Shown here: positions 18,751 to 33,856 of the stretch, piece after piece
Layout: each line of letters starts with the position of its first letter
How positions within the stretch are numbered: position 1 is the first letter of the stretch
Sequence record: PV435126.1
Strand: one strand, 5' to 3'
DNA from: Escherichia phage EPFV3-03/2025
Length of the DNA stretch: 64,000 nt
The notes under the pieces: model-generated
What the model was told of the DNA's origin: nothing
What the model saw: only the letters and a program-made list of their open reading frames with translations
Databases searched by the model: none
Made by a program: the position numbers and the translations under genes

Positions 18751-19713
18751 TCAGCAACCACAACTTCCGTAGTGCTTAACCCGTTCTATAACCTCCGCTT
18801 GCTTACCTTTATTGTAAGGACGAGAGTTTGGACTGGACAGATACCCGGATACGCGTCTGATCACACTGATCGTTCCTTCTTCATGGTTTCCACATTCTGG
18901 GCATACAAAGCCTTTAGCTGTTGCACTGAACTCACCAGAGAATCCACACTTAAGACATTTATCCACAGGCTGGTTAATACCAAAATACATAATGTGTTTA
19001 TATCCGAAATCAACAAGAGCTTCCAAAGCATCTAAGTTGTTTTTCAGATTTGGTGTCTCTATGTACCCAATGTTGCCACCAGAGGAGATCATAGCAAAAC
19101 CTTCCTCATACTTCCACTTATCAAAAGGCGAGCTATTGATCCATACTGGCTGATGGAAACTGTTGGTGAGGTATTCATGCTCGTGCTTCAACACTTCTGG
19201 GTATTCACGATCCAGACAGGTTGCAGCTTTATAGCATAAACTCTCAGAAGGTGTGCCGTACAAGCTAAATGCTAGTCCACTTTCCTTCTTGTATCGCTCA
19301 CAAGCATCTTTCATGTGCTGAAGGATTCCAAGAGCTAAAGCCTTGTCACCCTCTCTGCCCAAAATCTGACAGGTTTCATACACACCAATATACCCAATAC
19401 TGATGGAAGCGTACCCGTCATAGAAGAGTTTATCGATACTCTCTTCAGGATCCAGGCGAGCAAGAGCTCCTTCACACCACATGATAGGGTTCTGCCCTGC
19501 CTTTGTTCCTTTTAGACGGTTAACCCTTACAAGGTGAGCCTCATATGCCAAATCCAAATATTCGTCAAGAACTGCAAAGAAATCAACACCTTCCGTTTTA
19601 GCTTTTGCCGCAATCATTGGTAGGTTAAGGCTAACAACACCCAAGTTGAATCTGCCAAGGTATTTCTCCTCGCCTGTTACAGGGTCGCTATATTTCGATA
19701 AGAAACTTCTACA
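18751..19713 (-). CDS. nrdD: anaerobic ribonucleotide reductase, exon 2
   Basis: Begins at CRSFLS; C-terminal glycyl-radical motif RVSGY and cysteine tail CGC. Confidence 0.8.
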   Translation of the reverse strand, partial: CRSFLSKYSDPVTGEEKYLGRFNLGVVSLNLPMIAAKAKTEGVDFFAVLDEYLDLAYEAHLVRVNRLKGTKAGQNPIMWCEGALARLDPEESIDKLFYDGYASISIGYIGVYETCQILGREGDKALALGILQHMKDACERYKKESGLAFSLYGTPSESLCYKAATCLDREYPEVLKHEHEYLTNSFHQPVWINSSPFDKWKYEEGFAMISSGGNIGYIETPNLKNNLDALEALVDFGYKHIMYFGINQPVDKCLKCGFSGEFSATAKGFVCPECGNHEEGTISVIRRVSGYLSSPNSRPYNKGKQAEVIERVKHYGSCGC

Positions 19714-20475
19714 CATTATGTTCAAGGTGGTTCGCAAGGCCACCCCCGCACCTTTACGTGCTGCTGCATGTCCCCATGCAGATCAGACTATATCTTCACA
19801 CTTAGTGTGTCTACCATTTCGAGTGTCATCAGCTTACACCCTACACCGCTACATTCATCACGGTTAGTCGTTAGGCATTTCGTAACAGAACTCGTAATCA
19901 TAGTTATTAGGTGCACCACGTTTCAGGATAGCAGATATTCTTTTTCTATCTATTCCTAAAACATCAGCACAACATCTCAGACTCTTAAAGTGAATAACCA
20001 CACCAGTTAATTTGTGGGTGGCTTTCACCCCGTGACATCTTGTGTAAAAAGCATAACAGTTGTTGTCGTATCCTTCTTGAGTATTGTCTGGGCAAGCTCC
20101 CCACTCAAGGTTGTATACGCTGTTATCTTTCCTGTTGTCACCTTTGTGCTTAACATATGGTAAATTGTCTGGATTTGGTAAAAACGCTTCAGCAACAAGT
20201 CTGTGAACCCTTAGGCAAACAGTCTTTTTGTTCTTGCGTATCCTGACAAGACGGTAACCTGTGTTTATCTCTTCCCACGAATGAATAATTCTTTCATTTT
20301 CGTATCGGGTGCAATAAACATTGCCCATCTCGTCAATTTCATAACCTTCAAAATCACGAATTTGTTTTCTCATTTCAGGACTCCTCTTAGTCAGGAGTTC
20401 TGTTACGTTTAGCACGGGATTGTCCGTTCTGGAGTTTCCCCGTTTAGATAGATTTTACATGAGCAGTTATAGTTT
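19714..20475 (-). mobile_element. candidate group I intron in nrdD carrying an HNH homing endonuclease
   Basis: nrdD reading frame is interrupted; exon 1 ends in U (..atgggt) and the intervening sequence ends in G before tgt(Cys); free-standing HNH ORF inside; same arrangement as the T4 nrdD intron. Confidence 0.6.
19864..20415 (-). CDS. HNH homing endonuclease
   Basis: 183 aa; VHRLVAEAFLPNP...KHKGDNRKDNSVYNLEWG, typical HNH_3-type motif. Confidence 0.8.
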   Translation of the reverse strand: MLNVTELLTKRSPEMRKQIRDFEGYEIDEMGNVYCTRYENERIIHSWEEINTGYRLVRIRKNKKTVCLRVHRLVAEAFLPNPDNLPYVKHKGDNRKDNSVYNLEWGACPDNTQEGYDNNCYAFYTRCHGVKATHKLTGVVIHFKSLRCCADVLGIDRKRISAILKRGAPNNYDYEFCYEMPND

Positions 20476-21636
20476 ACCCATGCTTGTTACTTTGCCGTCT
20501 GTTGAACCTGTCACTTTACGATTCAGCGGAACAGAAACAAAGTCAGGATAAATCCGCTCTGCAGAACATTCTAGAGCCAATCGTTTCAAATCGTAGTTAG
20601 GATCCCCAGGGTTCATGTTGACACCCTCCTCTAAGAAGAACAGCACTTTAGGGAACACAGGTGTGATCCGTTCTTCACCAAGACCCATTTTGTGAACTTT
20701 CAAGTAGTTTTTGGTAATCATTCTACCAAAGACCGAGGTATCTAGCCCTAAACTTAATGTGATGAATGGAGTTTGCCCGTTGACAGAAGTTAACGTATTG
20801 ATTTGGTAGAGCAAAGTTTGCATACTATCAAACACGTCTTTATCTGTCATTTGCATTGCAACAGTCTCAGCATCTGGCAACCAATGTTCCTGACAAAATT
20901 TAAGGTTCTTCTCGTAGGTTGCTTCAGCATACTGTGCCAGATAATGATCAATATGGCTCATGGTCTGACCACCATATTGAGCACTAGCTACTGCACTAGA
21001 GATTTGGCTAAGGATTGTTGTTGCAACCCCTATTGACTTCGGCTTACTGACATGGGCGTTGCCAATGTTGAATCCGTTTTCCAGCATATCCGGATAATTT
21101 ACCAAACAACAGTTTGTTAACGGACTGATCAGGTAGTCAAGATCATGCACATGGATGAAGCCTTTGTTGTGCTCTTCGGAGACACGGTCTGGCAGGATCT
21201 GTGTTGATGCAAGATGTTTGCTAAGGATTCCTGCAAGCAGGTCACGATGAGTGTGTACATGATTAGTAGGCTTATTTGCGTTTTCTTTTGTAAATTCATC
21301 ACAAGTACGATCCAAGAAGCCGCTAATATCTGCAAGCAGTTTTCCACCTGCCTCTCTGTTATTATCCCTTGTCTGTCTATACTGGATGTATTCTCTGGCT
21401 GCACATTTTAAACCCATATCCATAAGAGCATCTTCAACAAGGATATGGATATTTTTTACAGAGATCGTGCACTGGTCAGTTGGCAGATTGTTGGCAACAA
21501 CTTCATTAACCGCACAGGCAATCCGGTAAGCTTCTTCTTCAGTATGTCCAGACTCAAGTAAGGCGGACTCTGCCGCCTTGATCACCTTAATTCCGTTATA
21601 AAACTCTTCTCTACCGTCCCGTTTTACAACTTTCAC
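20476..21636 (-). CDS. nrdD: anaerobic ribonucleotide reductase, exon 1
   Basis: N-terminal ATP-cone-like start MKVVKRDGREEFYNGIKV and GFIHVHDLD region; ends ..VTSMG. Confidence 0.8.
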
Positions 21637-28759: not shown

Positions 28760-29218
28760 TTAGAAGTTTGTTTTTACACGTCCCTTTTCATCTACTTCGT
28801 TGTTAGCTAAAAGCGTTACAAAGTCTGTAAAACGAACATGAAGAACTCTTTTCTTATCCAGGTATCCTAAAGCCACACCTGAGAAATTTACCATCAAAGG
28901 TGCTAAAGAAGCTCTAGCACTGAAATGCTGCTGTTCCACTCTTCCAACACCCTTAGTATAAGAAGGGTTGAGATTGTAAGTTCTGAATCCAAGTTTTGTT
29001 GGGGCTTTAGAATTAAAAACAACTTTATAACGTTTCTTACTCAACTTATGTTCCAGAATAAGCATACCCTTTTCACCACGGATAAGCTGAAAATCTGTAA
29101 AATGCTCTTTTAAGACAAAAGGTAGTGCCAGCCCCATAGCCTGTCCCCTTTGCACGGCTGTTTCACCAAAAGCCTTTGCATCAGTAAGCTCTTTAGTCAA
29201 GTCTATACTTTTGATCAT
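28760..29218 (-). CDS. hypothetical protein
   Basis: 152-aa ORF. Confidence 0.5.
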   Translation of the reverse strand: MIKSIDLTKELTDAKAFGETAVQRGQAMGLALPFVLKEHFTDFQLIRGEKGMLILEHKLSKKRYKVVFNSKAPTKLGFRTYNLNPSYTKGVGRVEQQHFSARASLAPLMVNFSGVALGYLDKKRVLHVRFTDFVTLLANNEVDEKGRVKTNF

Positions 29219-29999
29219 ACCTGGTCTCCAAAATGTATTGTAGTTCTTTCTTGCCTATACTCTTCATTCCAGCAGTCTTACCTGCTTCTTCTTGAAAAGA
29301 AGAATAGCATTCAGCAAACACTCTGTCAACACCCTCAACTAAAGATTTTATGAAATATGTTGATTCTTCAGATTTTGGGTCATCATCTCCCAATACTTTT
29401 CCAGCATTATACCCAACACGTCTTATGCAGAAGTCGTAGTCATCCGGTGTGCTAAAAGAAAATAGCTTATTCTCTCCAATCTCTACAGGATCCCTATTGC
29501 ACACCTTTTTCTCCCAAATTTGGAAAACACATGGCACGTCATAAGGTTTGTCGTTAAGTAAAAACGAGTTCTTGGGGCACCTTTCGCTGTAGATAAGGTG
29601 CATTGACATGTCCAACTTGTTTGCAAAAAATATTTTTTCAAATGTCCGTGGCAAGATGAAGGCTATAGCCCCGCCAGGCTCTAGCAATGATGCACAGTGG
29701 TTAAAGAACTTGCAAGCTAAAGACGAATTTTTGCCGAATGGAGGATTACCTATGAAGACATCAGCCTTAGGGTACACCTCTAAGAAGTTTGCCTTAATAC
29801 ACGGTGTTGGGCCTTCAAATTCAGGATCTGGTACCAAATCGTACGACAGTATCTCTGAAAATAGTTTTGAAAAAGAACCCTTTCCAGCAGAAGGCTCAAC
29901 GTATGCACAATTCCCATACCTAGCTTTTACTTTACCAACAAGATATTCTGCATACTCAGGGTCTGTGTAATATTTGTCGTTGGACTCTTTCTTGCTCAA
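29193..29999 (-). CDS. DNA methyltransferase (NPPF motif)
   Basis: 268 aa containing VFIGNPPFGK, amino-methyltransferase motif IV. Confidence 0.65.
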   Translation of the reverse strand: MSKKESNDKYYTDPEYAEYLVGKVKARYGNCAYVEPSAGKGSFSKLFSEILSYDLVPDPEFEGPTPCIKANFLEVYPKADVFIGNPPFGKNSSLACKFFNHCASLLEPGGAIAFILPRTFEKIFFANKLDMSMHLIYSERCPKNSFLLNDKPYDVPCVFQIWEKKVCNRDPVEIGENKLFSFSTPDDYDFCIRRVGYNAGKVLGDDDPKSEESTYFIKSLVEGVDRVFAECYSSFQEEAGKTAGMKSIGKKELQYILETRYDQKYRLD

Positions 30000-30045
30000 G
30001 GTGCCTCCAAAATGAAAAGGGGAGGCGCAAGCCTCCCTCTACTTG

Positions 30046-31029
30046 TCAGATTATCTGAATCAGGGTGTTTTTCATCTCTTCTCGGGTACGGATGTTGTTA
30101 CGATCACGAACAACAGATCCACAACCTTCGCAGCGGTAGGTTTTAAATGCACTCAGTTGAGTATACGCCAAAGCCTCTTCCTCGTGAAGGTGTTCTCCAC
30201 CACAACGTGGGCAACGAACTTTTGACTCCTCATCTTGGTAGTACAACGACATGTTGGGGTGCTGCTTAGCAAACGGACGCGCCAGCAAATACAGACCTTC
30301 CAGAGACAAGATGTCCCCAACATTATACTCCCGCATCTGTTTAAACGCCTCAAGATCACCATGAACACACTTGATCCACATTTCAAATGTGTGGTCAATT
30401 AGTTTCTGTCGGGCCAGCTGGAAGTATTTACATGCATACTCTAACGTGTTTGCATTCAAACGGAATGCCTTTTTAATCATCTTGAGGGTGTCAACCTCTT
30501 TGTATGGGCTTGTTGGCGGCAAACCGTGAAATGCAAATCGTTGGTTGGCCCACCCACAGTCAAAACCAGAGTTGTGTGCTACTGCGACATCACATTTATC
30601 CAGATAATACCACAAATCTTGAATCAGCTCAAGATCGTTGTGGATATCCTCGCCCCACATTTTGTAATCAGGAAGAGCACAGTCAACCACACTGGGGCTG
30701 TCTAACCATTTACCTGCGAAAGTTAGCATATAGGGCATAATTTCAATACCGCAGGTTTGAATGTTGGTCTTATAATGCCCAAAGAACCAGCCGTTTGTTG
30801 GGGATGTCTCTGTATCATACACCCAAACTTTAGCACCTTTGTGTTCTTCAAGGAAGCGCTCCGTTGCCTCTCCTACAATCTCTGACATATTCTCTTGTGC
30901 ACGTTTAAGCTGTAGCCGGATCCAGCTCTCACGTGACTCACGACCTAGAAATTCACGAGCAATTTGTCTATTGGTGTATCCTTGTTGCTTTAGTGTTAAA
31001 ATTTGCTCAAGAGTTAACTTTGTCATCAT
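30046..31029 (-). CDS. DEDD-type 3'-5' exonuclease with N-terminal HTH and C-terminal zinc ribbon
   Basis: 327 aa; exo motifs VYDTETS, AHNSGFD, YNVGDI; N-terminal LEQILTLKQQGYTNRQIA; C-terminal CPRCGG..CEGCG. Confidence 0.6.
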   Translation of the reverse strand: MMTKLTLEQILTLKQQGYTNRQIAREFLGRESRESWIRLQLKRAQENMSEIVGEATERFLEEHKGAKVWVYDTETSPTNGWFFGHYKTNIQTCGIEIMPYMLTFAGKWLDSPSVVDCALPDYKMWGEDIHNDLELIQDLWYYLDKCDVAVAHNSGFDCGWANQRFAFHGLPPTSPYKEVDTLKMIKKAFRLNANTLEYACKYFQLARQKLIDHTFEMWIKCVHGDLEAFKQMREYNVGDILSLEGLYLLARPFAKQHPNMSLYYQDEESKVRCPRCGGEHLHEEEALAYTQLSAFKTYRCEGCGSVVRDRNNIRTREEMKNTLIQII

Positions 31030-31041
31030 CGTTAAGATTCC

Positions 31042-31263
31042 TTAGTAAAACTGAAGAATGTCTTTTAAAGCGAAGTCACGATATTCGCCCTTGTCTACAT
31101 CAAATGCATGCATCAACCACTGCTCTTCTTTATGATACTCTGTAGATCCAAACCATAAACTAGGCTCAGTAACGCAGCGATCTGCAACAACACCTTTCCA
31201 GTTACGGTATTTCATTCTGATCAGAACTGAATCGCAAGGATTGAATACCTTTTTCATCCCCAT
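31042..31263 (-). CDS. hypothetical protein
   Basis: 73-aa ORF. Confidence 0.4.
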   Translation of the reverse strand: MGMKKVFNPCDSVLIRMKYRNWKGVVADRCVTEPSLWFGSTEYHKEEQWLMHAFDVDKGEYRDFALKDILQFY

Positions 31264-31807
31264 AGAAATCTCTCTCCTCAGTTTTCTTTATAAACTCCTG
31301 CATGTATGCCTCAATAGCCTCATGCTTGGTGTACTCTGAATTAATGACAAGATCGAGATCCGATTCTGCCCGTGCAATAATCGTAGCCTTAGAGCATCTC
31401 CTCAAGAACTTTGTCATATCATCTCTGTAGTTTTTGTGGAGCGGGAAGTCGCTGTAGTCTTTCTCCAGATAGTCAGCCATCCGGCGCAACGCCTCTGATA
31501 AACTGCAATCTGTATACTCGTTACAGTATTTCATCCAGTATTTAAGCACATACCCCTCAAAGGTATTAGTGCATTGGGACAAAACACCTCTACAACGACC
31601 AGTCAGATGATCATGATCTAAACAAGGCTTACGAAGTGGTTCGCACAAGATCGGATCAAGACCATCCTGCTCTTCTGACAATTCTTTCCGAAAGTTGGCT
31701 ATGTCCTTAGAATCTTTTAGCCACCCTCTATTAACGGGGGCTTTGACAGCTTTCTTTCTTATTTTACGCTTTGCGATAATCCCTCCAGATGCGCCCTGCC
31801 TATCCAA
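31202..31807 (-). CDS. endonuclease VII-like junction-resolving enzyme
   Basis: CEPLRKPCLDHDHLTGRCRGVLSQCTN matches the T4 gp49 zinc/HLDHDH core; start uncertain because the ORF overlaps both neighbours. Confidence 0.7.
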   Translation of the reverse strand: MDRQGASGGIIAKRKIRKKAVKAPVNRGWLKDSKDIANFRKELSEEQDGLDPILCEPLRKPCLDHDHLTGRCRGVLSQCTNTFEGYVLKYWMKYCNEYTDCSLSEALRRMADYLEKDYSDFPLHKNYRDDMTKFLRRCSKATIIARAESDLDLVINSEYTKHEAIEAYMQEFIKKTEERDFYGDEKGIQSLRFSSDQNEIP

Positions 31808-32388
31808 TAAGCATCTGCGAGATCGGCCTTACCTTGTACCAAATTGATCCCATCTAGGAACCCAGGTTCAGATACTTCACAGGCCTTAACCATCAACTTT
31901 TTATCCATCGTAACAGGCTTCTTCACAGTATGCTCTTTACCCGTCCTTTTGTCAAGCTTTTTCTTCTCCTCAAAAGCAAGTTCTTCAGGAAGATGACTAC
32001 GAGCAAACTTTTTGGCAGTTGTTGGTGTCACTGTGTGGACCTTAAACAGGCCGTCATTTTCACAATCAGCTAAGGCATCCCAAAGCATAACTTCAAGACC
32101 GTAAAACAACCCAGCCAGTTCACGTGTGGCATCCCCGCGTGATCCAAAGGAAAGCCCTTCCATAACTACGGTGTCAACGCCGTGCGTGTGGATATAATAT
32201 CTGACCTGTTTGCAGATCCAGTCAATACGCTCAGCAGCTGTTGCAAAAGAAACCGTCCCTGGTTTCTTCTCTTTTGCAGATGAGCTTTGAGTTCGTAACA
32301 CAACCTTATGAACAGGCTTTCCATCGTCCCATACAACGCAAGCTGTGTGTGTCAACGACTGGTCTATGGATAATAGACGCTCTCTCAT
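31759..32388 (-). CDS. RuvC-like Holliday junction resolvase
   Basis: 209 aa; LSIDQSLTHTA, VVMEGLSFGSRGD and KADLADAYWIG resemble RNase H-fold resolvase catalytic motifs. Confidence 0.55.
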   Translation of the reverse strand: MRERLLSIDQSLTHTACVVWDDGKPVHKVVLRTQSSSAKEKKPGTVSFATAAERIDWICKQVRYYIHTHGVDTVVMEGLSFGSRGDATRELAGLFYGLEVMLWDALADCENDGLFKVHTVTPTTAKKFARSHLPEELAFEEKKKLDKRTGKEHTVKKPVTMDKKLMVKACEVSEPGFLDGINLVQGKADLADAYWIGRAHLEGLSQSVK

Positions 32389-32720
32389 GCTTCCTCATCC
32401 TCCTCTCCTTCATCAGGAGCATAAGCCTTATCTTTGAACAAGACGAGAGAGCAAAGCTTAACATCTGTTTCCACACTGGTGAACATGCATAACCGCTCGC
32501 CCTCAATCAGCTCACAATCCTCTTTTAAAACAGCAGACCATACACGGTCATCTGCGTAATCATCAGTGTACAGGATGTATGAAATGGTGTCATCTTCATA
32601 CAACCGCCACATACCTGTGGCAACAACGAATGTGTTTTTTGTTTTAAGTGTCCCTGTTGTATGATCATCCTCAAAAACAGCTTCCATAATTGCGTTATCT
32701 ACAGCATTTTTAGTCATCAA
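32385..32720 (-). CDS. hypothetical protein
   Basis: 111-aa ORF. Confidence 0.45.
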   Translation of the reverse strand: MMTKNAVDNAIMEAVFEDDHTTGTLKTKNTFVVATGMWRLYEDDTISYILYTDDYADDRVWSAVLKEDCELIEGERLCMFTSVETDVKLCSLVLFKDKAYAPDEGEEDEEA

Positions 32721-33856
32721 ATTGCTCCAACATTTCTAAGAACGTTAACAAGTTTTGTTTGATCATTGAATGTTCGCTTCATATACAAACAGTCAAAAAT
32801 TATACTCATCCATTGACCTACGGAAATTCTGCGATCAATACCATTGAAGTCAGTATACTTAACAACACCTTTCGGGAACCACTTCTTGTACTGATCAATA
32901 ATAGCCACCCACATCTCCTTTGGAGTGCTGCACTGAGACAGTAGGTAGAATGCTGAGGCATCCCCGAACTTACCCTTACCGATAAGTCCTTGATACGGCT
33001 TGATATTGTCAGCAGAGTCACCACACAGCATTTGGTATCCGAAGAACAGCATCCCGTAACCACCAACCTCTCCATTAGGCTTCATGAAGATGTTCCCCAT
33101 ACCGTTATCGATCAGCATAGGGGTTTCCCTTACAAAATCTCCCTTATCGTTTCGCATGGGATCGAACACAAGCCCCGGTAGTGTTCTTTGGTCCTTATCA
33201 ATAGAGATAATAAACTTGTTGAACTTACCCGTTTTTTGGTAGTGGTTCCAACCTTCAAATTGCTGGATAGCTAACCAGTCGTCAGCCTCGATACCGTTGA
33301 TCACTTGAGCATTATACTGCTTTTGGAGATACTGTCTTGCATCTCCAAGCAGCAGTGGTCGAAGAGTATTGTTACGGTTGGCTTTATATCTTTCCGGCAT
33401 GGGAAGATCTAGTCTGAAATTACCTGTGCCTCCAAGTACCCCCACGCACCGATCTTCCGGAATACCGAGATAATTAAGGACTGCATTAGCTTTACACTTA
33501 ATTGTGTGCAAGCAGTTCTCTACAGGATCAGGGGTTTGGATATCCAAGACATCGAAATCTTCTCGTGTCCACGGAATAAACTCCTTGCCAGCCTTTTTAC
33601 ATGCAGCTTCACGGTTGGTATTCTCAGCTTTTAACCAACCACCAACGGTGTTCTTCTGCCGCCCCCAGAACTCTGTTCGTGTTTTAAACATCTTCTTACG
33701 TCCGGAGGCTTTGTGTGTTACCTCAATTGTCCTTTTTTCACAACTTGCTGCAGCTTGATATGCAACCTGATCGAAGTCATAATAAACTATAGCGTCAGGT
33801 TCAAGAAGATCAGCCAGACAATCTATGGACTCAATAAGTGGATATTCTCTACTCAA
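32717..33856 (-). CDS. 5'-3' exonuclease / flap endonuclease (T4 RNase H-like)
   Basis: 379 aa; VYYDFDQVAYQAAAS parallels T4 RNase H CLIDFSQIALSTA; GDSADNI matches the FEN GDxxDNI motif. Confidence 0.75.
   Translation of the reverse strand: MSREYPLIESIDCLADLLEPDAIVYYDFDQVAYQAAASCEKRTIEVTHKASGRKKMFKTRTEFWGRQKNTVGGWLKAENTNREAACKKAGKEFIPWTREDFDVLDIQTPDPVENCLHTIKCKANAVLNYLGIPEDRCVGVLGGTGNFRLDLPMPERYKANRNNTLRPLLLGDARQYLQKQYNAQVINGIEADDWLAIQQFEGWNHYQKTGKFNKFIISIDKDQRTLPGLVFDPMRNDKGDFVRETPMLIDNGMGNIFMKPNGEVGGYGMLFFGYQMLCGDSADNIKPYQGLIGKGKFGDASAFYLLSQCSTPKEMWVAIIDQYKKWFPKGVVKYTDFNGIDRRISVGQWMSIIFDCLYMKRTFNDQTKLVNVLRNVGAI

What the first reader, a model, noticed from the sequence alone, without database searches (positions are those of the whole stretch)
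30046..31029. DEDD exonuclease fused to an N-terminal sigma-70 region-4-like HTH and a C-terminal zinc ribbon
The exonuclease motifs YDTETS / HNSGFD / YNVGDI are flanked by LEQILTLKQQGYTNRQIA at the N-terminus and CPRCGG..CEGCG at the C-terminus. This is an unusual domain combination for a proofreading-type exonuclease; it could be a targeted nuclease or a regulator.
Basis: partly seen in the sequence, partly recalled or inferred. Interest (0 to 1): 0.45.

Follow-up and report, generated by a model that had tools for sequence, protein, structure and literature searches.

The report
Phage stand-alone 3'-5' exonuclease gene
This is an ordinary, already-annotated gene of rV5/FV3-like E. coli phages: a stand-alone DNA-trimming (3'-5') exonuclease with a small DNA-binding domain at one end and a zinc ribbon at the other, and that layout is the norm for a very large but biochemically untested phage protein family.

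Summary
A 327-aa ORF on the minus strand (30046-31029) carries an N-terminal three-helix HTH, a DEDDy 3'-5' exonuclease core (D72, E74, D157, Y235, D239) and a C-terminal four-Cys zinc ribbon.

The "unusual" reading is not supported.
- The window is a Vequintavirus (rV5/FV3-like) phage, and the gene is 100% identical to a GenBank CDS.
- It matches PHROG 403 end to end (E 9e-111).
- Relatives occur in 1527 phage records and 4773 protein clusters.
- Of the 149 best cluster representatives, 148 keep the four Cys and 120 have an N-terminal extension of at least 45 aa.

The fold is closest to polymerase proofreading domains (family B, T7). It is not DnaQ/epsilon, because Exo III is Y-x3-D, and it is not a polymerase.

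The database name "polymerase exonuclease subunit" is unsupported here. The phage's T7-like polymerase keeps its own exonuclease acidic residues and, in a relative, is encoded about 45 kb away.

The gene closes a co-directional nuclease string (5'-3' exonuclease, RuvC-like, endonuclease VII) that ends in a terminator-like hairpin. The same order recurs in phiKMV-like phages.

Most likely it is a DNA-tethered 3'-end-trimming nuclease of phage replication and recombination. Its biochemistry is untested. Low interest.

The parts
30046..31029 (-). Complete CDS, 327 aa: HTH, DEDDy 3'-5' exonuclease and zinc ribbon (equivalent to FV3 gp093 and Bas59 gp178)
   Evidence: ORF list and translation; PHROG 403 E 9.3e-111 over residues 2-326; 100% nt identity to PQ014731 and 99.5% to FV3
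30889..31014 (-). N-terminal three-helix HTH (aa 6-47; helices 7-15, 20-28, 31-47 and onward)
   Evidence: AF2 pLDDT 85-91; a profile from 115 distant relatives without the window scores 27.9 bits on aa 2-42; HTH_38 E 0.034 and HTH_7 E 0.094 on the window protein itself; HTH_23, HTH_38, HTH_SB and HTH_7 hits in relatives; 59-76% identity to the four closest relatives P0002-P0005, falling to 23-38% in P0006 and P0007 where the core stays near 50%
30835..30888 (-). Low-confidence helical linker (aa 48-65) between the HTH and the core
   Evidence: pLDDT below 50 for aa 50-64; least conserved segment
30262..30834 (-). DEDDy 3'-5' exonuclease core (aa 66-256)
30802..30819 (-). Exo I motif YDTETS (D72, E74)
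   Evidence: D and E in 268 of 270 aligned sequences
30559..30576 (-). Exo II motif HNSGFD (N153, D157)
   Evidence: D157 in 270 of 270, N153 in 265 of 270
30310..30327 (-). Exo III motif YNVGDI (Y235, D239): the DEDDy type, not DEDDh
   Evidence: Y in 268 of 270, D in 269 of 270
30100..30222 (-). C-terminal zinc ribbon (aa 270-310), with knuckles CPRCGG (30196-30213) and CEGCG (30118-30132)
   Evidence: Several Pfam zinc-ribbon models at E 2e-3 to 5e-3; three beta strands in the model; C273 and C300 nearly invariant, all four Cys in 159 of 270 sequences and in 148 of 149 50%-cluster representatives
31039..31043 (-). AAGGA Shine-Dalgarno-like site about 9 nt upstream of the ATG, directly after the stop codon of the upstream gene
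   Evidence: Sequence read
30020..30037 (-). Terminator-like hairpin GGGAGGC-TTGC-GCCTCCC followed by a T-run, 8 nt after the stop codon
   Evidence: Scan and sequence read
31042..33856 (-). Upstream co-directional, overlapping gene string: 5'-3' (FEN-type) exonuclease 32717-33856, unknown 32385-32720, RuvC-like resolvase 31759-32388, endonuclease VII 31202-31807, small unknown 31042-31263
   Evidence: PHROG 107, 159 and 423 and Pfam PF02945; ORF coordinates

Best explanation
The gene encodes a stand-alone, metal-dependent DEDDy 3'-to-5' exonuclease. Its catalytic core is of the polymerase-proofreading type, closest to the exonuclease domains of family B and T7 polymerases. It belongs to the phage cluster of Pfam PF13482, which is PHROG 403. 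A flexibly linked N-terminal HTH and a C-terminal four-Cys zinc ribbon most likely hold the enzyme on DNA. It is expressed as the last gene of a nuclease operon (5'-3' FEN-type exonuclease, RuvC-like resolvase, endonuclease VII). It most likely trims 3' ends or flaps of phage DNA intermediates during replication-coupled recombination and repair, and may also help break down host DNA for nucleotide salvage. It is probably not a dedicated proofreading subunit of the phage polymerase. Shown here: the domain anatomy, an intact active site, the fold, the breadth of the family, and the synteny. Inferred: the DNA substrate, the role of the HTH and ribbon in DNA binding, and the biological pathway.
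Confidence: 0.6

Rival explanations
1. It is a trans-acting proofreading subunit of the phage family A DNA polymerase, as the database name 'DNA polymerase exonuclease subunit' implies. In this view it supplies or supplements 3'-5' editing at the replication fork.
For: PHROG 403 and several GenBank records use this name. The core is of the polymerase-proofreading type. In podoviruses the gene lies a few genes downstream of the polymerase gene. The Vequintavirus polymerase aligns Arg at the position of the Exo III Tyr of T7.
Against: The cognate polymerase retains the Exo I D-x-E, Exo II HN..YD and Exo III Asp. Its gene is about 45 kb away on the other arm of the genome in Bas59. Co-occurring complete PolA genes in other phages mostly keep a D-x-E Exo I motif at the N-terminus. 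The one apparent case of an exonuclease-less partner, Xanthomonas CP1 ORF40, actually starts with FDLETT...GHN and is a polymerase split at its C-terminal end. From general knowledge, not tested here: cluster F mycobacteriophages that carry the family encode no DNA polymerase.
Confidence: 0.15
2. It is a host-DNA breakdown and nucleotide-salvage exonuclease, functionally like T4 DexA or the T7 gene 3 / gene 6 system. It would convert nicked host DNA into dNMPs that the neighbouring dNMP kinase, ThyX and RNR genes recycle.
For: Downstream neighbours in the same orientation are dNMP kinase, 5'-nucleotidase, ThyX and class I and III RNRs. Distant homologues are strongly cytotoxic when overexpressed.
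Against: A terminator-like hairpin separates the gene from the salvage genes. In small podoviruses the gene sits in the replication and recombination block, without a salvage module. Toxicity on overexpression is not specific evidence.
Confidence: 0.15
3. It is a sequence-targeted nuclease or an HTH-based regulator. The HTH would recognise a specific site, such as genome ends, an origin or a competitor element, or would repress transcription, with the nuclease domain secondary.
For: The HTH is of the transposase/resolvase type, which usually reads specific sequences. Among the four closest relatives it is 59-76% identical, comparable to the catalytic core.
Against: The catalytic residues are invariant, so this is not a pure regulator. 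About 15-20% of family members lack the N-terminal domain altogether, and the marine clade carries an N-terminal domain with no detectable sequence similarity to this one. This suggests a generic, exchangeable anchor. No target site was identified.
Confidence: 0.08

Closest known systems
PHROG 403 / phage cluster of Pfam PF13482 (RNase_H_2; cluster F.23 of Majorek et al. 2014), e.g. FV3 gp093, Bas59 gp178, phi92 gp084, ICP1 ORF189, LKA1 gp34, mycobacteriophage LeBron gp93
   Same: Full-length homology (E 9e-111), the same DEDDy motifs, and the same C-terminal ribbon. In most members there is also an N-terminal HTH-type extension.
   Different: Nothing material: the window protein is a typical member. 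The family itself has no biochemical characterisation in the literature searched.
3'-5' proofreading exonuclease domains of family B DNA polymerases and of T7 DNA polymerase
   Different: There is no polymerase domain. The protein stands alone at 327 aa with HTH and zinc-ribbon additions. Sequence identity to these domains is only 13-18%.
DNA polymerase III epsilon subunit (DnaQ)
   Same: Same superfamily fold. Weak local similarity around Exo II (E 0.013 to PDB 1j53; NCBIfam 26.7 bits).
   Different: DnaQ is DEDDh (His-x4-Asp in Exo III), whereas this protein has Tyr-x3-Asp. The score is far below the equivalog cut-off (26.7 against 196 bits). No alpha- or clamp-binding tail was identified.
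T4 DexA and other stand-alone phage 3'-5' exonucleases
   Same: A stand-alone DEDD exonuclease encoded among phage DNA-metabolism genes. This resemblance is recalled from general knowledge.
   Different: No detectable specific sequence relationship was found here. As far as I know, DexA lacks an HTH and a zinc ribbon. Not tested.

Membership tests
DEDD(y) 3'-5' exonuclease superfamily (RNase H-like fold) | Exo I D-x-E, Exo II N-x2-3-[FY]-D, Exo III Y-x3-D | tested here: met
   D72/E74, N153/D157 and Y235/D239 are present and invariant or nearly so in 270 relatives
DEDD(y) 3'-5' exonuclease superfamily (RNase H-like fold) | RNase H-like alpha/beta fold superimposable on known exonuclease domains | tested here: met
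DEDD(y) 3'-5' exonuclease superfamily (RNase H-like fold) | Metal-dependent 3'-5' exonuclease activity | not testable with these tools
   Requires an enzyme assay
PHROG 403 / phage PF13482 cluster | Full-length profile match | tested here: met
   PHROG 403 E 9.3e-111, residues 2-326 against profile positions 2-320 of 321. PF13482 matches 139 of 144 relatives at E <= 0.01, although the window protein itself gives no PF13482 hit
DNA polymerase III epsilon (DnaQ) equivalog | DEDDh Exo III (H-x4-D) and a score above the NCBIfam equivalog cut-off | tested here: not met
   Exo III is Y-x3-D; best NCBIfam score is 26.7 bits against a cut-off of 196
Family B DNA polymerase (one GenBank annotation of the identical gene) | Polymerase palm, fingers and thumb domains | tested here: not met
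   The 327-aa protein has only exonuclease-domain similarity
Polymerase proofreading subunit | A partner polymerase that lacks or has lost its own exonuclease site | tested here: inconclusive
   The Vequintavirus PolA keeps the Exo I, Exo II and Exo III acidic residues but has Arg at the Exo III Tyr position. Partner polymerases elsewhere mostly keep Exo I
Polymerase proofreading subunit | Physical association with the polymerase | not testable with these tools
   Requires co-purification or a validated complex prediction
Sigma-70 region 4 HTH | Significant match to Sigma70_r4 models | tested here: not met
   No Sigma70_r4 hit on the window protein at E <= 1; Sigma70_r4_2 matches only 2 of 144 relatives, against HTH_23 in 20 and HTH_38 in 11
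Generic three-helix HTH (Pfam HTH clan) | Three-helix bundle with a helix-turn-helix, recognised by HTH profiles | tested here: met
   Helices 7-15, 20-28 and 31 onward at pLDDT 85-91; HTH_38 E 0.034 and HTH_7 E 0.094 on the window protein; family N-terminal profile 27.9 bits; strong HTH hits in relatives
Zinc ribbon | Two CxxC knuckles on a three-stranded sheet | tested here: met
   CPRC and CEGC lie 23 residues apart; strands 281-289, 294-300 and 306-308; several ribbon models at about 2e-3; four Cys in 148 of 149 representatives
Zinc ribbon | Zinc actually bound | not testable with these tools
   Requires metal analysis. A marine subclade has C-x2-S pairs instead

The most novel reading that the evidence does not exclude
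The HTH and zinc ribbon may make this a site- or structure-directed 3'-5' exonuclease with a dedicated job beyond general end-trimming. Examples would be processing phage genome termini or replication origins, or attacking host or competitor DNA or a defence-system nucleic acid. The strong cytotoxicity of distant mycobacteriophage homologues would then reflect a real host-directed activity. Because the family spans thousands of phage lineages, this would define a widespread, uncharacterised phage nuclease function.
Probability: 0.1. Interest if true: 0.55.

Novelty: already known. Interest (0 to 1): 0.18.

Why it matters
It matters little as a discovery, because the gene and its family are already catalogued. 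Two modest points are worth keeping. First, the common database names ("DNA polymerase III epsilon subunit", "DNA polymerase B", "DNA polymerase exonuclease subunit") are not supported by the tests done here. A neutral name such as "DEDDy 3'-5' exonuclease with HTH and zinc ribbon" would be more accurate. Second, this is a very large phage family: 4773 50%-identity clusters and 1527 phage records. It has a conserved three-part architecture, recurrent linkage to FEN and endonuclease VII genes, and reported cytotoxicity of distant members, yet I found no biochemical study of it. It is therefore a reasonable target for routine characterisation.

Tried and rejected
- **Exonuclease-less partner lead.** Xanthomonas phage CP1 ORF40 is annotated "DNA polymerase lacking N-terminal exonuclease". 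Rejected: ORF40 begins FDLETT...GHN and aligns to residues 2-534 of a complete phiKMV-type polymerase, and ORF39 supplies the rest. It is a split polymerase, not an exonuclease-less one.
- **Paralogues in the window.** I searched all window ORFs for copies of the HTH or the ribbon, for example the small "transposase-like" genes upstream. None was found.
- **Defence-system models.** PADLOC gave only a generic DEDDh hit, E 4e-6. This is uninformative.
- **Sequence search of PDB.** A single-sequence search found only weak epsilon and PolC hits. A profile search added the Pfu PolB exonuclease domain and a faint Sleeping Beauty PAI HTH match, E 0.26.
- **Structure prediction.** It was replaced by a 119-sequence model (pLDDT 80.2).
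- **afdb50 fold search.** Not available.
- **Literature.** Searches on rV5/Vequintavirus, "DNA polymerase exonuclease subunit", DnaQ-like mycobacteriophage genes, PF13482 and phiKMV found genome annotations and overexpression screens but no enzymology.
- **Rfam scan of the window.** It found only tRNAs.
- **Neighbourhood clustering.** Across 85 loci (80 IMG/VR contigs plus the window and four reference phages) the contexts are diverse and no universal partner gene emerged.

Full report
**What is there**

The reported interval holds one ORF, on the minus strand (30046..31029, ATG start, 327 aa, TGA stop).
- LEQILTLKQQGYTNRQIA at aa 6-23
- YDTETS at aa 71-76
- HNSGFD at aa 152-157
- YNVGDI at aa 235-240
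- CPRCGG at aa 273-278
- CEGCG at aa 300-304

An AAGGA ribosome-binding-like site lies 9 nt upstream of the ATG, right after the stop codon of the preceding gene. A strong terminator-like hairpin (GGGAGGC-TTGC-GCCTCCC plus a T-run) starts 8 nt after the stop codon.

**Where the window comes from**

The gene is 100% identical in DNA to Escherichia phage VB-EcoM-WM and 99.5% identical to phage FV3. It is at least 90% identical in 120 Vequintavirinae records. The window is therefore an rV5/FV3-like myovirus.

The same gene is annotated in different records as "hypothetical protein", "DNA polymerase exonuclease subunit", "DnaQ-like 3'-5' exonuclease", "DNA polymerase III epsilon subunit" or "DNA polymerase B". 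The 2013 rV5 genome paper does not discuss it (PMC3606486).

**Domain anatomy**

- **Whole protein.** It matches PHROG 403 end to end (E 9.3e-111). Pfam gives only sub-threshold hits on this one sequence: RNase_T E 3e-4, several zinc ribbons at about 2e-3, HTH_38 at 0.034.
- **Structure model.** A model built on 119 homologues has mean pLDDT 80.2. It shows three N-terminal helices (7-15, 20-28, 31-62; pLDDT 85-91 up to about aa 40), a low-confidence linker (aa 50-64), a core at pLDDT above 90 (aa 66-256), and a three-stranded C-terminal ribbon (281-289, 294-300, 306-308; pLDDT 54-75).
- **Active site.** In a 270-sequence alignment D72, E74, D157, Y235 and D239 are invariant or nearly so. This makes it an intact DEDDy site, not the DEDDh site of DnaQ.
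- **Ribbon cysteines.** C273 and C300 are nearly invariant. C276 and C303 are Cys in 159 sequences and Ser or Thr in a marine subclade.

**How common the architecture is**

- A profile of the close relatives finds 4773 clusters (50% identity) at E <= 1e-3, and 1845 at E <= 1e-30, among 1.84 billion representatives.
- tblastn finds the protein in 1527 phage records: Mycobacterium 549, Escherichia 217, Pseudomonas 214, Vibrio 95 (including ICP1 ORF189), then Xanthomonas, Klebsiella and others.
- Among the 149 best representatives, 148 have all four Cys, 120 have at least 45 residues before Exo I, and 22 have fewer than 20.
- Scanning 144 representatives against Pfam gives RNase_H_2 (PF13482) in 139, DNA_pol_B_exo2 in 83, RNase_T in 75 and DNA_pol_B_exo1 in 45. 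N-terminal HTH hits are HTH_23 (20), HTH_38 (11), HTH_SB (5), HTH_7 (4) and Sigma70_r4_2 (2).
- An N-terminal profile built from 115 of these relatives, without the window protein, matches window aa 2-42 at 27.9 bits. Its consensus is a textbook HTH...eeiieLkneglssreiArklgvskstvrryl....
- Against the four closest relatives (P0002-P0005) the HTH is 59-76% identical, comparable to the core at 51-81%. In P0006 and P0007 it drops to 23-38% while the core stays near 50%.

The tripartite layout is therefore the family norm, not an oddity. Majorek et al. 2014 already list a phage-only PF13482 cluster (F.23) next to the PolB exonuclease clusters and call PF13482 proteins presumed 3'-5' exonucleases (PMC3985635). 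BFVD's best structural match is LKA1 "YprB ribonuclease H-like domain-containing protein" (E 1e-25).

**Is it a polymerase subunit?**

The evidence is mostly against.
- The Vequintavirus polymerase (Bas59 gp074, 925 aa, T7-like family A) starts with FDFEASGL (Exo I). It also has HNCYSYD (Exo II) and the Exo III Asp, aligned with the T7 motifs.
- One caveat: Arg aligns where T7 has the Exo III Tyr.
- Its gene is about 45 kb from the exonuclease gene in Bas59.
- In other phages that carry the family, most complete co-occurring PolA genes keep a D-x-E Exo I motif at the N-terminus.
- The one apparent exception fails on inspection. Xanthomonas CP1 ORF40 is annotated as lacking the exonuclease, but it begins FDLETT...GHN and is simply split from its C-terminal part, ORF39.

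**Context**

In the window the gene is the last of a run of overlapping, co-directional genes:
- FEN-type 5'-3' exonuclease (PHROG 107)
- an unknown gene
- RuvC-like resolvase (PHROG 159)
- endonuclease VII (PF02945, PHROG 423)
- a small unknown gene
- this gene, followed by the terminator-like hairpin

Downstream, past the hairpin, lie a DNA methyltransferase, dNMP kinase, 5'-nucleotidase, ThyX and RNR genes.

The order FEN - EndoVII - this gene recurs in P. putida phage ErraM and in Xanthomonas CP1. Pseudomonas phage Mx1 has polymerase - hypothetical - an annotated exonuclease gene - small hypothetical - this gene.

I also sampled 85 loci: 80 IMG/VR contigs plus the window and four reference phages. 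A FEN gene lies within 3 kb upstream on the same strand in 16 of the 63 loci that have enough upstream sequence. EndoVII does so in 8 and PolA in 6. Linkage to the replication and recombination nuclease set is thus recurrent but not universal.

**Experimental hints**

The only functional data found are overexpression screens. LeBron gp93, a distant member that lacks the HTH (H49), is among the most toxic LeBron genes in M. smegmatis. The authors group it with toxic "DnaQ-like" genes of phages Girr, Amelie, Hammy and Adephagia (PMC13148394; PMC11797047). This fits an active nuclease or interference with replication, but it is not specific evidence.

**Most likely mechanism**

The protein is most likely a stand-alone two-metal DEDDy 3'-5' exonuclease that acts on DNA. 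The HTH, on a flexible linker, and the zinc ribbon probably act as DNA anchors. It probably trims 3' ends or flaps of replication and recombination intermediates alongside the FEN, RuvC-like and endonuclease VII products of the same gene string. A contribution to host-DNA recycling is possible.
- **Shown here:** the anatomy, the intact active site, the fold, the family breadth and the synteny.
- **Inferred:** the substrate, the role of the accessory domains and the pathway.

**Verdict**

The gene is already known and annotated, and it is a typical member of a very large but biochemically uncharacterised phage family. Interest is low. The useful by-products are that several database names for it (epsilon subunit, polymerase B, polymerase subunit) fail simple membership tests, and that the family would repay a routine biochemical study.

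Noticed in passing
window ~18751-21636 (minus strand): The class III ribonucleotide reductase gene nrdD appears split into two ORFs (20467-21636 and 18751-19743) by an HNH homing-endonuclease ORF at about 19864-20373. This follows the annotation of the identical phage PQ014731. In phage Bas59 nrdD is a single 1911-nt gene. Rfam finds no group I intron at the gathering threshold.
   Followed up: partly
window 30020-30037 (minus strand): A strong terminator-like hairpin, GGGAGGC-TTGC-GCCTCCC plus a T-run, lies directly after the exonuclease stop codon. It is followed by GGAGG and the TTG start (29999) of the methyltransferase gene. This suggests a transcription-unit boundary inside the DNA-metabolism cluster.
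   Followed up: partly
L004:11538-14315 (Bas59 DNA polymerase; not in the window): The Vequintavirus T7-like polymerase keeps the Exo I, Exo II and Exo III acidic residues. However, it aligns Arg where T7 has the Exo III catalytic Tyr (DRVFED against DYNVQD). Whether its proofreading is weakened is unknown.
   Followed up: no
GenBank MG065647, MG065661 and about 18 other 'Campylobacter phage' records: Records labelled as Campylobacter jejuni phages carry this gene at about 99% amino-acid identity to E. coli Vequintavirus. The host attribution looks doubtful.
   Followed up: no
P0009-P0120 (marine metagenome relatives): A large marine subclade replaces the second Cys of each zinc knuckle with Ser or Thr (C-x2-S ... 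C-x2-S) while keeping C273 and C300. It also carries an N-terminal helical domain with no detectable sequence similarity to the window's HTH. This could be a degenerate, possibly metal-free, ribbon with an exchanged N-terminal module.
   Followed up: partly
L090:2944-5729 (Xanthomonas phage CP1 ORF40 and ORF39): The CP1 'DNA polymerase lacking N-terminal exonuclease' is really the N-terminal 572 aa of a phiKMV-type polymerase, with the Exo I motif FDLETT present. The adjacent ORF39 supplies the C-terminal part. It is a split or frameshifted polymerase gene that has been mis-described.
   Followed up: yes
window 29193-29999 (minus strand): The 268-aa methyltransferase ORF (TTG start) is intact here and in FV3. 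In the identical phage record PQ014731 it is annotated as a shorter gene plus an opposite-strand hypothetical gene. This looks like an annotation inconsistency.
   Followed up: no
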